From the NCBI RefSeq assembly GCF_056712565.1, contig NZ_CM160072.1: a stretch of 64,000 nucleotides of DNA, one strand, 5' to 3'. Positions 18,645-22,510 of this stretch are shown here, piece after piece. Position 1 is the stretch's first letter. Each line of letters starts with the position of its first letter. The position numbers and the translations under genes were made by a program. The notes beneath the pieces are model-generated. The model was not told the origin of the DNA and made no database searches. It saw nothing but the letters and a program-made list of their open reading frames with translations.

Positions 18645-19322
18645 ATGAGTGCGTCGTTGGCGATCCTGACTATCGGCATTGTACCTATGCAGGAAGTTTT
18701 GCCGCTCCTGACAGAATACATTGACGAAGATAATATTTCCCATCATAGCCTGCTGGGGAAGTTAAGCCGCGAAGAAGTGATGGCGGAGTACGCGCCAGAA
18801 GCAGGCGAAGACACAATTCTCACATTATTAAATGACAACCATCTGGCCCATGTTTCGCGTCGCAAAGTGGAGCGAGACCTGCAAGGTGTGGTTGAAGTGC
18901 TCGATAATCAGGGTTACGACGTCATTATATTAATGAGTACAGCAAACATTAGTAGTATGACCGCGCGTAATACGATCTTTCTTGAGCCGTCGCGGATATT
19001 GCCACCGCTGGTTTCCTCTATTGTTGAAGATCATCAGGTGGGGGTTATCGTACCGGTTGAGGAGTTGCTGACCGTTCAGGCGCAAAAATGGCAAATTTTG
19101 CAGAAACCGCCAGTATTTTCATTGGGTAACCCCATTCATGATTCGGAACAAAAAATCATTGATGCCGGGAAAGAATTACTGGCAAAAGGTGCAGATGTCA
19201 TCATGCTGGATTGTTTGGGATTTAACCAGCGTCATCGCGATTTACTGCAAAAACAGCTCGATGTTCCTGTCTTGCTCTCTAACGTATTGATTGCACGGCT
19301 GGCTGCGGAATTACTAATGTAA
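18645..19322 (+). CDS. aroM: AroM family protein
   Basis: 225 aa; [39 protein letters not shown]... Confidence 0.9.
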
Positions 19323-19393
19323 TTTTGCGTGACAGCCAGCGCCTCTGGCCCCTATAGTGAAGTAGATGTTCAACTACCAGACAGGGCCAGTTT

Positions 19394-19678
19394 ATGCTTC
19401 AAAGTAATGAGTACTTTTCCGGCAAAGTGAAATCGATCGGCTTTTCCAGCAGCAGCACTGGTCGCGCCAGCGTGGGTGTTATGGTTGAAGGTGAATACAC
19501 CTTCAGCACCGCTGAGCCTGAAGAGATGACGGTAATCAGTGGCGCGCTGAATGTGTTACTGCCTGACGCGACCGACTGGCAAGTGTATGAAGCCGGTTCG
19601 GTGTTTAATGTTCCCGGTCACAGCGAGTTTCATCTGCAAGTTGCCGAACCCACCTCTTATCTGTGCCGCTATCTGTAA
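19394..19678 (+). CDS. ppnP: pyrimidine/purine nucleoside phosphorylase PpnP (YaiE)
   Basis: 94 aa; [37 protein letters not shown]..., cupin-like. Confidence 0.9.
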
Positions 19679-19684
19679 TTCCTC

Positions 19685-19713
19685 GCCTTCCCCTTGAACG
19701 GGAGGGCATTTTT
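19685..19713 (+). terminator. rho-independent terminator after ppnP
   Basis: GCCTTCCC-loop-GGGAGGGC followed by ATTTTTCT. Confidence 0.6.
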
Positions 19714-19885
19714 CTGAAATGTCCTCTCTTTAACCCATAATAATATTTCCTTTGCTGGGATTTTTTCGATTTCCGATATATTCATAATTCATCAAGGTTG
19801 ATATAAATATCAGCGAAGATCTCCAGATATTGTTGCGGAACTGGCGACGATAAAAGATAAATCAGATGATGAATGGTGGCGTGCA

Positions 19886-20167
19886 TTGCTGCAAAGTCGC
19901 AATGATCATTTGCGCCAAACGGCATTGCACAACGCACATACCCCGGTGTTGTTGTTAACGACATTGACTGAGCCTCAGGAGCGGTCGCTGGCTATTAATA
20001 ATTCACAGCTGGCTGCCGATGTGAAAACGGCGTGGTTAAAAGAGGAGCCATCATTACTCTTATTTGTCGAACAACCCGATCTTTCGCTGTTACGTGATTT
20101 AGTGAAAACCGGGGCAACGCGAAAAATTCGCAGTGAAGCGCGTCACCGGCTTGAGGAAAAACAATGA
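19886..20167 (+). CDS. hypothetical protein, orphan ORF with TTG start (possibly a ykiA-like remnant)
   Basis: 93-codon ORF; frame open upstream to 19802 with no ATG; no clear SD; between ppnP terminator and a REP element. Confidence 0.3.
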   Translation: MLQSRNDHLRQTALHNAHTPVLLLTTLTEPQERSLAINNSQLAADVKTAWLKEEPSLLLFVEQPDLSLLRDLVKTGATRKIRSEARHRLEEKQ

Positions 20168-20271
20168 CACAACGCCCCTGGAGCAAGTTACAGCATAAAA
20201 CGCATAATATTGCTGCGCTAAGAATTATTGCCCGCTGTAGCTAACGATTATATTCCTGGTGTGGCTTTGTA

Positions 20272-20306
20272 CGCCGGATAAGACGCGGCAGGCGTCGCAT
20301 CCGGCA
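20272..20306. repeat. REP element
   Basis: GCCGGATAAGACGCGGCAGGCGTCGCATCCGGC palindromic unit just downstream of rdgC stop. Confidence 0.6.
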
Positions 20307-20324
20307 TTAAAGGTAAATCAGCAA

Positions 20325-21236
20325 TTAACGTTGTGCTTCGCCACCTAATCCTTCAATCAGGTTTTGAATTAACGCTGCCAGTTCACCAGTCATCAGGATG
20401 AAATCGGCATCAAAGCGCTGGGCGAAATCTTCACGGTCGATATCTTCGTTTTGATCGCGCAGCTCGTCGCAGAACTTCAGACGCTTGAGCGAACCATCGT
20501 CGCACATCACAAACTGAATGCGCTGCTGCCAGTCAAGCGCCAGTTTAGTCACCACTTTTCCGGCTTCAATGTGGTTGGTGATCTCTTCGCTGGTCAGATC
20601 TTGTTTCTTCGCGCGGATCACGCCGCCATCTTCCAGCAACGATTTCAGCTCGGCTTCATCAAGCAGCTGGAAGCCCTGTGCCGCGCTGCCGGAACGTACC
20701 CATTCGGTCAGCGTCAGTTCAATCGGGTTTTCCATGCTCAATGGTACAACCGGTAACGACCCCAGGCTTTTACGCAGCAGTGCCAGCGTATCTTCCGCTT
20801 TTTTGGCGCTGGCGCAGTCCACCATAATCAAACCGTTAACCGTGTCGATCCACATCATTGTCTGGCTAAAACGGCTGAAAGCACGCGGCAGCAGAGAGTG
20901 CAGCACTTCGTCTTTCAGCGAATCTTTTTCGGTTTTCTTCAGCTTACGCGCCTGTTCTGCTTCCAGTTTGGCGATTTTCGCTTCCAGCGCCTGTTTAATC
21001 ACCGGGGACGGGAGGATTTTTTCTTCTTTGCGCGCACAGATAACAATTTGACCATTGGCAACGTGCGTTAACGCATCGCTGTGCGATCCCATCGGAGGTA
21101 CCCAGCCCATCTTCGCCATGTCCTGGCTGCCGCATGGGGTAAATGCCATCGAGGCTAGCTGTTTTTCCATCTCTTCTGCACGCAGCGAAATCTCGCGGCT
21201 AAGACGGTAAACCATTAAATTTTTGAACCACAGCAT
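20325..21236 (-). CDS. rdgC: recombination-associated protein RdgC
   Basis: Start at 21236 gives [39 protein letters not shown]... (303 aa); ORF-track start 21308 rejected. Confidence 0.93.
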
Positions 21237-22294: not shown

Positions 22295-22510
22295 GCCTGA
22301 TGCGACGCTTGCCGCGTCTTATCAGGCCTACAAAGTGAGCCGTCCGGTAGGCCGGATAAGGCGCTCGCGCCGCATCCGACAACAAATAACGCGCACAGTG
22401 GCGGCAACCCCCCAGTGCTCCGATGCCTGATGCGACACTGGCGTGTCTTATCAGGCCTACAAAATGAACAGTCCCGTAGGCCGGATAAGGCGTTCACGCC
22501 GCATCCGGCA
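22295..22510. repeat. BIME/REP cluster: two tandem ~125-bp units each holding a pair of inverted REP palindromes
   Basis: GCCTGATGCGACGCTTGCCGCGTCTTATCAGGCCTAC...GTAGGCCGGATAAGGCGCTCGCGCCGCATCCGAC repeated with minor differences. Confidence 0.8.

What the first reader, a model, noticed from the sequence alone, without database searches (positions are those of the whole stretch)
19714..20324. Orphan ORF or gene remnant between ppnP and rdgC
A 93-codon ORF (19886..20167) begins at TTG with no convincing ribosome-binding site. The same frame is open upstream to 19802 without an ATG, which looks like a 5'-decayed gene remnant. An overlapping 60-codon ORF lies on the opposite strand. The region is bounded by the ppnP terminator and a REP element.
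Basis: seen in the sequence. Interest (0 to 1): 0.35.

Follow-up and report, generated by a model that had tools for sequence, protein, structure and literature searches.

The report
Known ykiA pseudogene plus YkiD relic
The stretch between ppnP and rdgC is the already-annotated wreck of a two-gene cassette that is still intact in E. coli O157:H7: the tail of a 759-residue secreted protein gene (ykiA pseudogene) plus a 26-codon in-frame stump of its neighbour (YkiD). It is ordinary genome decay, not a new gene.

Summary
The window is E. coli and is 100% identical to ATCC 11775 here. The reference K-12 record already annotates the equivalent bases as ykiA (b0392, pseudogene) and ykiD (b4732).

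O157:H7 keeps the intact cassette at the same ppnP–rdgC slot: a 759-aa protein (signal peptide, β-helix, HEAT/LRV-like solenoid) and a 149–151-aa SF0329-family protein that overlaps it by ATGA. Relative to that cassette the window has two deletions:
- **Deletion 1:** 1,939 nt, from 2 nt before the start codon, leaving the last 113 codons (19826–20167).
- **Deletion 2:** an in-frame 372-nt loss between 10-nt direct repeats, leaving the 26-codon YkiD ORF (20164–20244) with its SD.

The native promoter region is retained; in K-12 it is BglJ-RcsB-activated, and YkiD was detected by tagging. Among 8 remnant alleles, substitutions fit neutrality (25 nonsynonymous, 11 synonymous; dN/dS mostly 0.5–0.9 across 10 alleles, against ≤0.19 for ppnP). 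The antisense 60-codon ORF is cut to 39 codons in most lineages.

About 82% of 5,426 complete E. coli genomes carry this state, and about 8% keep the intact cassette. Interest is low. The minor new points are that YkiD is a deletion relic and that Pfam DUF2773 spans little more than the stump.

The parts
19685..19717 (+). ppnP intrinsic terminator: 8-bp stem GCCTTCCC/GGGAGGGC, 7-nt loop, T-run
   Evidence: Terminator scan. Conserved in K-12, O157 and MS145-7.
19708..19820 (+). Retained native upstream region (promoter and 5' leader) of the lost 759-aa gene. It is colinear with O157 up to 2 nt before that gene's ATG and is AT-rich (37% GC for 19679-19825).
   Evidence: blastn: window 19394-19820 = L006 1635-2061, 97.4% identity. 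GC. In K-12 the ykiA promoter in this intergenic region was mapped by 5'-RACE and is activated by BglJ-RcsB (PMC3950696); the exact TSS coordinate is in a figure I could not read. The only sigma-70-like + strand match is 19714-19741, which is a pattern match only.
19821..19825 (+). Deletion-1 junction. The 5 nt CTCCA are found in neither parental flank (filler). The deletion removed 1,939 nt (L006 2062-4000): start codon, signal peptide, beta-helix and most of the solenoid.
19826..20167 (+). ykiA pseudogene: the last 113 codons plus stop of the 759-aa DUF2773-containing protein (residues about 647-759, the last few helical repeats).
   Evidence: RefSeq annotates it as pseudo, 'missing N-terminus', in the identical strain and as b0392 pseudogene in K-12. 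blastn to L006 4001-4342. Pfam DUF2773 at 144 bits. Neutral substitution pattern.
20153..20157 (+). Shine-Dalgarno GAGGA of the SF0329/YkiD start, 6 nt upstream of the ATG, inside the end of ykiA
   Evidence: Read from the sequence. The string GAGGAAAAACAATG is identical in all sampled remnant alleles and in the intact O157 cassette.
20164..20244 (+). ykiD-type mini-ORF (26 codons, MTQRPWSKLQHKTHNIAALRIIARCS). It is codons 1-10 of the SF0329-family gene fused in frame to its last 16 codons, and it overlaps the ykiA stop (ATGA).
   Evidence: RefSeq CDS WP_122083095.1; K-12 ykiD b4732; alignment to intact SF0329 genes. K-12 YkiD (27 aa) was detected by chromosomal SPA tagging (PMC6001520 Table 1).
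20186..20194 (+). Deletion-2 junction: the surviving copy of the direct repeat AGTTAC(A/G)GC(G). The deletion removed 372 nt (124 codons) of the SF0329 gene (L006 4370-4741).
   Evidence: Overlapping blastn segments and junction read-out.
20273..20305 (.). REP element between the convergent ykiD and rdgC ends
   Evidence: Pattern search; a second copy lies at 22480-22509. Partial naRNA4 (REP-derived) match below threshold. Present at the same place in O157 and E4930.
19782..19964 (-). Antisense 60-codon ORF: a chance ORF, not part of any gene
   Evidence: Cut to 39 codons by a stop in K-12, WAT, RM10809, 035152, 88-3493 and VE-T9. Its 3' third crosses the deletion junction, so its sequence differs in O157.

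Best explanation
The region is a decayed two-gene cassette, already annotated in E. coli as pseudogene ykiA plus the small ORF ykiD.

The ancestral Escherichia locus between ppnP and rdgC carried two genes:
1. A 759-aa exported protein with a signal peptide, an N-terminal beta-helix and a long HEAT/LRV-like alpha-solenoid.
2. An SF0329-family gene of 149-151 codons, overlapping the first gene by 4 nt (ATGA).

In the lineage of this window two deletions occurred:
1. A 1,939-nt deletion, starting 2 nt upstream of the start codon, removed the start, the signal peptide and 646 codons. The promoter and leader ended up fused to the last 113 codons.
2. A 372-nt in-frame deletion between two 10-nt direct repeats (AGTTACAGCG and AGTTACGGCG, 9 of 10 identical) removed codons 11-134 of the SF0329 gene. 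A 26-27-codon ORF remains that keeps the original SD and ATG.

Shown: both homologies, both junctions, the neutral substitution pattern, and the K-12 annotation.

Taken from K-12 experiments in the literature: the retained promoter is still active and BglJ-RcsB-dependent, and YkiD is translated.

Inferred: the transcript and the YkiD peptide are by-products of surviving expression signals rather than functional products, and the 93-codon TTG ORF is not a real gene. The function of the intact cassette is unknown. My best guess, at low confidence, is that the large protein is an envelope binding, scaffold or adhesin-like protein and that SF0329 is an immunity-type protein that was only a neighbour of it.
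For: - **Intact cassette at the same locus.** It is present in O157:H7. blastn maps window 19394-19820, 19826-20194 and 20186-20400 to L006 1635-2061, 4001-4369 and 4733-4948. Both junctions were read base by base.
- **Existing annotation.** PGAP marks the stretch as pseudo, 'missing N-terminus', in the identical strain. The K-12 reference record has ykiA b0392 as a pseudogene and ykiD b4732 as a CDS.
- **Intermediate and alternative decay states exist:**
  - deletion 1 only, with SF0329 intact (strain 88-3493);
  - deletion 1 plus a different second deletion and a frameshift (MS145-7, E7476, E300082, SW07164);
  - IS3 insertion in the big gene;
  - IS1 replacement.
- **Neutral evolution.** Among 8 remnant alleles there are 35 segregating sites, 25 nonsynonymous and 11 synonymous. 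Simulated random mutation gives 23.6 +/- 2.7 nonsynonymous, and P(no stop) = 0.18. Pairwise dN/dS across 10 alleles is 0.3-1.2, against <=0.19 for ppnP.
- **Pfam DUF2773.** The model covers only residues 679-759 of the 759-aa protein.
- **Structure of the intact protein.** The AlphaFold model has pLDDT 91, and the remnant corresponds to the last few helical repeats.
- **Expression in K-12.** The ykiA promoter has a 5'-RACE-mapped TSS, and BglJ-RcsB activation was shown with lacZ fusions and binding-site mutagenesis (PMC3950696). YkiD was detected by SPA tag (PMC6001520).
Against: - The remnant frame is open in all 10 alleles sampled, and the one indel seen inside it is in frame. This would also be expected of a functional small gene, although it is not statistically unusual here (P = 0.18 for the absence of stops).
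- Many pairwise dN/dS values are below 1, and the counts are too small to exclude weak constraint.
- The YkiD ORF and its SD are kept in every double-deletion allele sampled, and the state is carried by about 82% of E. coli genomes.
- No translation data for the 93-codon ORF were available to me.
Confidence: 0.93

Rival explanations
1. The 93-codon TTG ORF (or a slightly longer version) is a genuine small-protein gene. In this view a free-standing 'DUF2773 domain' protein was exapted from the C-terminal repeats of the large protein and is expressed from the retained BglJ-RcsB promoter.
For: - The frame is open in 10 of 10 alleles, including an in-frame 3-nt deletion.
- The locus is transcribed and regulated in K-12.
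- Older annotations call it 'hypothetical protein ykiA', for example in CFT073.
- A Pfam family exists for it.
Against: - The substitution pattern cannot be told apart from random mutation, and dN/dS is far above that of ppnP.
- The TTG is simply an internal Leu codon of the intact gene, with only a weak GGTGG upstream.
- Roughly 9% of genomes fall in the class that has deleted the fragment entirely (state D) or replaced it with IS1.
- Both PGAP and the K-12 reference record mark it as a pseudogene.
- The Pfam family spans only the last 81 of the 113 retained codons.
Confidence: 0.04
2. YkiD is a functional small protein that has been selectively retained, and the ykiA remnant now serves as its leader (5' UTR).
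For: - YkiD synthesis was shown in K-12.
- The SD, ATG and ORF are intact in all 8 double-deletion alleles.
- This state is the majority state in E. coli.
Against: - The peptide is just residues 1-10 and 135-150/151 of SF0329 joined by a repeat-mediated deletion.
- It varies at 5 or more of 27 positions, and its stop codon position differs among only 8 alleles.
- It matches no protein family on its own.
- Retention of signals over the short time since E. coli diverged needs no selection.
Confidence: 0.05
3. The antisense 60-codon ORF (19964..19782) is the real gene of the region.
For: It starts with ATG and is 60 codons long in this window.
Against: - A stop cuts it to 39 codons in 6 of the 9 other alleles examined.
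- Its C-terminal third spans the deletion junction and upstream region, so it cannot predate the deletion.
- It has no family match and is not annotated in any record inspected.
Confidence: 0.01

Closest known systems
E. coli K-12 ykiA (b0392, pseudogene) and ykiD (b4732, protein YkiD)
   Same: Orthologous and colinear with the window over 19394-20400 at 96.8% identity, with the same two deletion junctions. The window's elements are the B2-lineage alleles of these two features.
   Different: Allelic differences only. The window's frame runs further upstream (CGA where K-12 has TGA at 19814-19816). Its YkiD is 26 aa rather than 27. Its antisense ORF is longer.
Intact DUF2773-containing protein of E. 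coli O157:H7 (WP_120795310.1, 759 aa) and its relatives
   Same: The window's 113 codons are about 88% identical in protein to residues 647-759 and lie at the same chromosomal slot.
   Different: The window lacks the start codon, the signal peptide, the beta-helix (about residues 65-176) and about 400 residues of solenoid, so it cannot make the protein.
SF0329 family (Pfam PF25753, NCBIfam NF049912)
   Same: YkiD keeps the family's first 10 and last 16 residues and its translation start.
   Different: 124 internal codons, which include nearly all the invariant residues of the family, are gone. The peptide does not match the family models.
Repeat-mediated and illegitimate deletions in bacterial pseudogene decay
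   Same: Deletion 2 lies between 10-nt direct repeats (9 of 10 identical). Deletion 1 has a short filler. Other lineages add IS insertions and frameshifts.
   Different: Nothing unusual. The one slightly uncommon feature is that the expression signals of both genes survived.

Membership tests
5'-truncated pseudogene (gene remnant) | Homologous to only part of a longer intact gene found at the orthologous locus in relatives | tested here: met
   Window 19826-20167 = L006 4001-4342, the 3' end of a 2,280-nt gene between ppnP and rdgC in O157:H7. The gene is also intact in Escherichia sp. E4930.
5'-truncated pseudogene (gene remnant) | Loss of the start codon and of essential N-terminal parts | tested here: met
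   The deletion runs from 2 nt upstream of the ATG through codon 646. There is no ATG or GTG in frame between 19802 and the TTG at 19886.
5'-truncated pseudogene (gene remnant) | Relaxed or neutral sequence evolution after truncation | tested here: met
   25 nonsynonymous and 11 synonymous changes, against 23.6 +/- 2.7 nonsynonymous expected at random. dN/dS is 0.3-1.2, against <=0.19 for ppnP. The sample is small (8-10 alleles).
5'-truncated pseudogene (gene remnant) | No functional protein product | not testable with these tools
   This needs ribosome profiling, tagging or a phenotype. Only transcript-level data for ykiA were found.
Pfam DUF2773 (PF10971) | Match to the family HMM above the gathering threshold | tested here: met
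   144.8 bits against a cutoff of 25, covering model positions 1-81 of 81. The model equals the C-terminal 81 residues of the 759-aa protein, so it describes a fragment rather than an autonomous domain.
SF0329 family (PF25753 / NF049912) | Match to the family HMMs, i.e. presence of the conserved core | tested here: not met
   The 26-aa YkiD peptide matches no family. Only the two termini align. It is a relic of a member, not a member.
REP (repetitive extragenic palindrome) | Imperfect GC-rich palindrome of the GCCGGATAAG...CGCATCCGGC type, located between genes and repeated in the genome | tested here: met
   Present at 20273-20305, with a second copy at 22480-22509; 0 expected by chance. Partial naRNA4 hit at 27.8 bits, below the gathering score.
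Toxin-immunity pair / polymorphic toxin system (considered for the intact cassette) | The large protein carries a recognisable toxin domain, and the small downstream gene is obligatorily linked to it | tested here: not met
Polyimmunity-locus immunity protein (considered for SF0329) | Occurs in tandem same-strand arrays of diverse small immunity genes, often next to a tyrosine recombinase (Zhang et al. 2012, PMC3482391) | tested here: inconclusive
   Five of the six SF0329 homologues looked up lie in arrays of small same-strand genes, and four of those arrays contain recognised immunity families. The neighbours include Imm10, SMI1_KNR4/SUKH_6, SUKH-3, UPF0167, Macro and integrase genes. One homologue is solitary. 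The fold has no match in the PDB or BFVD. This is association only.

The most novel reading that the evidence does not exclude
Debris from the decayed cassette has been exapted. Either the translated 26-27-aa YkiD fusion peptide, or a cytoplasmic 93-aa helical-repeat fragment started at the internal TTG, would have gained a function under BglJ-RcsB control. That would explain why this exact double-deletion state is carried by about 82% of E. coli genomes.
Probability: 0.06. Interest if true: 0.45.

Novelty: already known. Interest (0 to 1): 0.12.

Why it matters
The finding itself matters little. It re-discovers an annotated pseudogene, so it should not be carried forward as a candidate new gene.

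Three side points are useful for annotation:
- **YkiD is a relic.** It is listed among the experimentally verified small proteins of K-12, yet it is an in-frame deletion relic of an SF0329-family gene. Detecting a tagged peptide therefore does not show that a functional gene exists.
- **Pfam DUF2773 describes a fragment.** The model covers only the last 81 of the 113 codons that survive, whereas the real protein is a 759-aa exported beta-helix/solenoid protein.
- **The locus is a clean natural series of decay states.** It includes intact, one-deletion and two-deletion forms, an alternative deletion plus frameshift, and IS insertions. This could serve as a phylogenetic marker or a teaching example.

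Tried and rejected
- **Function of the intact large protein.**
  - There were no hits in PDB sequences or PADLOC. PHROGs and NCBIfam gave only noise.
  - No specific function could be assigned.
- **Function of SF0329.**
  - There were no PDB sequence hits.
  - The AFDB library was unavailable.
- **Toxin-immunity hypothesis for the cassette.** I considered it because a large polymorphic gene is followed by a small overlapping gene. I rejected it because the large gene persists without SF0329 and lacks a toxin domain.
- **RNA families.** Nothing in 19300-20700 reached threshold.
- **Exact ykiA TSS and BglJ-RcsB box coordinates.** They are only in figures and supplements that are not held, so I could not place the promoter to the base.
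- **Searches that failed.** My first REP pattern had the wrong spacing and found nothing. A literature search with match='anywhere' returned only noise.
- **Origin of the 5-nt CTCCA at junction 1.** It is found in neither the O157 nor the VE-T9 parental flanks and is left unexplained as filler.

Full report
**Observation**

The window around 19714-20324 reads as the first stage described.
- ppnP ends at 19678 and is followed by a terminator hairpin (19685-19707 plus a T-run).
- A 93-codon ORF starts at the TTG at 19886 and ends at 20167.
- The same frame is open back to 19802 without an ATG.
- A 60-codon ORF lies on the opposite strand at 19782-19964.
- A REP palindrome sits at 20273-20305 (sub-threshold naRNA4 match), just before the convergent rdgC (20325-21236).
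- Upstream of the TTG there is only a weak GGTGG.

**Identity**

Megablast against 5,426 complete E. coli genomes finds the region in 5,424 of them. It is 100% identical to strain ATCC 11775. In that genome PGAP annotates two features:
- Window 19826-20167 is a pseudogene, [quoted passage not shown].
- Window 20164-20244 is an 81-nt CDS.

The K-12 reference record annotates the same positions as ykiA (b0392, pseudogene) and ykiD (b4732). So the feature is already known.

**What it is a remnant of**

In O157:H7 the ppnP-rdgC interval holds two genes:
- an intact 2,280-nt gene encoding 759 aa;
- a 450-nt SF0329-family gene that overlaps it by ATGA.

blastn and base-level reading show how the window maps to this cassette:
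- Window 19394-19820 equals the O157 sequence up to 2 nt before the large gene's ATG.
- Window 19821-19825 (CTCCA) is filler found in neither flank.
- Window 19826-20194 equals the last 342 nt of the large gene plus the first 31 nt of the small one.
- Window 20186-20400 equals the last 56 nt of the small gene, then the REP and the end of rdgC.

Two deletions therefore separate the window from the intact state:
- **Deletion 1** is 1,939 nt.
- **Deletion 2** is 372 nt (124 codons, in frame). It lies between AGTTACAGCG and AGTTACGGCG.

The result of deletion 2 is the 26-codon ORF MTQRPWSKLQ|HKTHNIAALRIIARCS. This is SF0329 residues 1-10 joined to residues 135-150, and it keeps the original SD (GAGGA at 20153-20157) and ATG.

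**Decay series**

Other E. coli genomes show the following states:
- Deletion 1 alone, with an intact 151-aa SF0329 gene (strain 88-3493; Shigella flexneri proteins fit this state).
- Deletion 1 plus a different second deletion that removes the ykiA stump, together with a frameshift in SF0329 (MS145-7, E7476, E300082, SW07164).
- An IS3 insertion in the large gene.
- Replacement by IS1.

All truncated states share the junction string GAAGATCTCCA, so deletion 1 happened once.

Approximate state frequencies, derived from coverage classes rather than per-genome inspection:

| State | Genomes | Share |
|---|---|---|
| Intact (including IS-split) | about 444 | 8% |
| Deletion 1 only | about 57 | 1% |
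| This double-deletion state | about 4,440 | 82% |
| Alternative deletion, IS1 and other | about 480 | 9% |

Escherichia sp. E4930 has the large gene (73% identity) at the same slot. A scar of the SF0329 3' end follows directly after its stop codon. So both genes were ancestral in the genus and have been lost independently.

**Is the stump functional?**

Among 8 remnant alleles there are 35 segregating sites, 25 nonsynonymous and 11 synonymous. Random mutation of the consensus gives 23.6 +/- 2.7 nonsynonymous changes and 1.6 stops. The probability of seeing no stop is 0.18. Pairwise dN/dS across 10 alleles is 0.3-1.2, mostly 0.5-0.9, against <=0.19 for ppnP in the same strains.

The frame is open in all 10 alleles, and one in-frame 3-nt deletion exists. 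Neither observation is statistically remarkable.

The TTG is an internal Leu codon of the intact gene. The antisense ORF is cut to 39 codons in six of the nine other alleles, and its end crosses the deletion junction, so it is a chance ORF.

**Expression**

In K-12 the ykiA promoter lies in the ppnP-ykiA intergenic region. It was mapped by 5'-RACE, and BglJ-RcsB activation was shown with lacZ fusions and binding-site mutagenesis (PMC3950696). The window keeps that region at about 97% identity. YkiD (27 aa) is listed among the small proteins detected by chromosomal SPA tagging (PMC6001520 Table 1). The simplest reading, which is an inference, is that the expression signals of both lost genes survived and still drive a transcript and a relic peptide.

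**The intact proteins**

*The large protein*
- It folds confidently (pLDDT 91): a signal peptide, a beta-helix at about residues 65-176, and an alpha-solenoid to the C-terminus.
- Relatives match LRV, LRV_2, HEAT and DUF2336 repeats.
- An exhaustive HMMER search finds 169 relatives. About 40 of them are full-length at 20-35% identity, and those examined have no SF0329 neighbour.
- Pfam DUF2773 covers only residues 679-759, which is little more than the stump.

*SF0329*
- It is about 60% identical across phyla.
- Its predicted fold has no match.
- It often lies in integrase-headed arrays of small same-strand genes that include Imm10, SUKH, SUKH-3 and UPF0167. These resemble the polyimmunity loci of Zhang et al. 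2012 (PMC3482391). This is a lead, not a test.

*The cassette as a whole*
- A toxin-immunity relationship between the two genes is not supported.
- The cassette is AT-rich: 42-45% GC against 51% for the window.

**Verdict**

The feature is already known and ordinary, so interest is low. The only points I did not find stated elsewhere are that YkiD is a deletion relic of SF0329 and that DUF2773 describes a fragment of a 759-aa protein.

Noticed in passing
window 20164-20244: YkiD, a small protein verified by tagging in K-12, is residues 1-10 and 135-150/151 of an SF0329-family protein, joined by a 372-nt repeat-mediated in-frame deletion. The paper that reported it does not mention this origin: a search of its text for 'pseudogene' found nothing.
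   Followed up: yes
window 19922-20164 (Pfam DUF2773 match); L006 2063-4342: The Pfam DUF2773 model (81 positions) equals the C-terminal 81 residues of a 759-aa exported beta-helix plus HEAT/LRV-solenoid protein. The 'domain' lies entirely within the pseudogene stump that is common in E. coli genomes.
   Followed up: yes
L013 387-10000; L014 726-10400; L028 and L029; L011 2238-5471; L012 4070-6252: SF0329-family genes in other phyla sit in tandem same-strand arrays of small genes. The neighbours include Imm10, SMI1_KNR4/SUKH_6, SUKH-3, UPF0167, Macro and WGR/DUF4240 genes, and two arrays are headed by a tyrosine integrase. This looks like polyimmunity islands. The family is about 60% identical across phyla, which is unusually conserved for an immunity protein.
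   Followed up: partly
L025 6278-6345 (Escherichia sp. E4930): Directly after the stop of the intact large gene there is a scar of the SF0329 3' end (GGTTACGGCGTAAAACACACAATATTGCAGCG...). This is a loss of SF0329 at the same repeat motif, with a junction different from the E. coli one.
   Followed up: partly
L006 4760-4788 (O157:H7): The O157 SF0329 allele has one extra A in an A-run near its 3' end. Its last residues read ...ALKNYCPP (149 aa) instead of ...ALKIIARRSE (151 aa) as in Shigella and strain 88-3493.
   Followed up: no
L004, L021, L022 and L023 (about 466-923 in each locus): All four sampled 'SF0329-only' strains are annotated as frameshifted (457 nt). In MS145-7 the cause is an extra C in the run CGCCCCCTGG at codons 4-6. 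The frameshift probably arose once in that lineage.
   Followed up: partly
window 22480-22509: A second REP copy (GCCGGATAAGGCGTTCACGCCGCATCCGGC) lies downstream of mak.
   Followed up: no
window 19821-19825: The 5 nt CTCCA at the deletion-1 junction match neither parental flank in O157 or VE-T9. Their origin (filler, or a lost ancestral allele) is unexplained. The next base or bases vary between lineages (G, GG or TG).
   Followed up: partly
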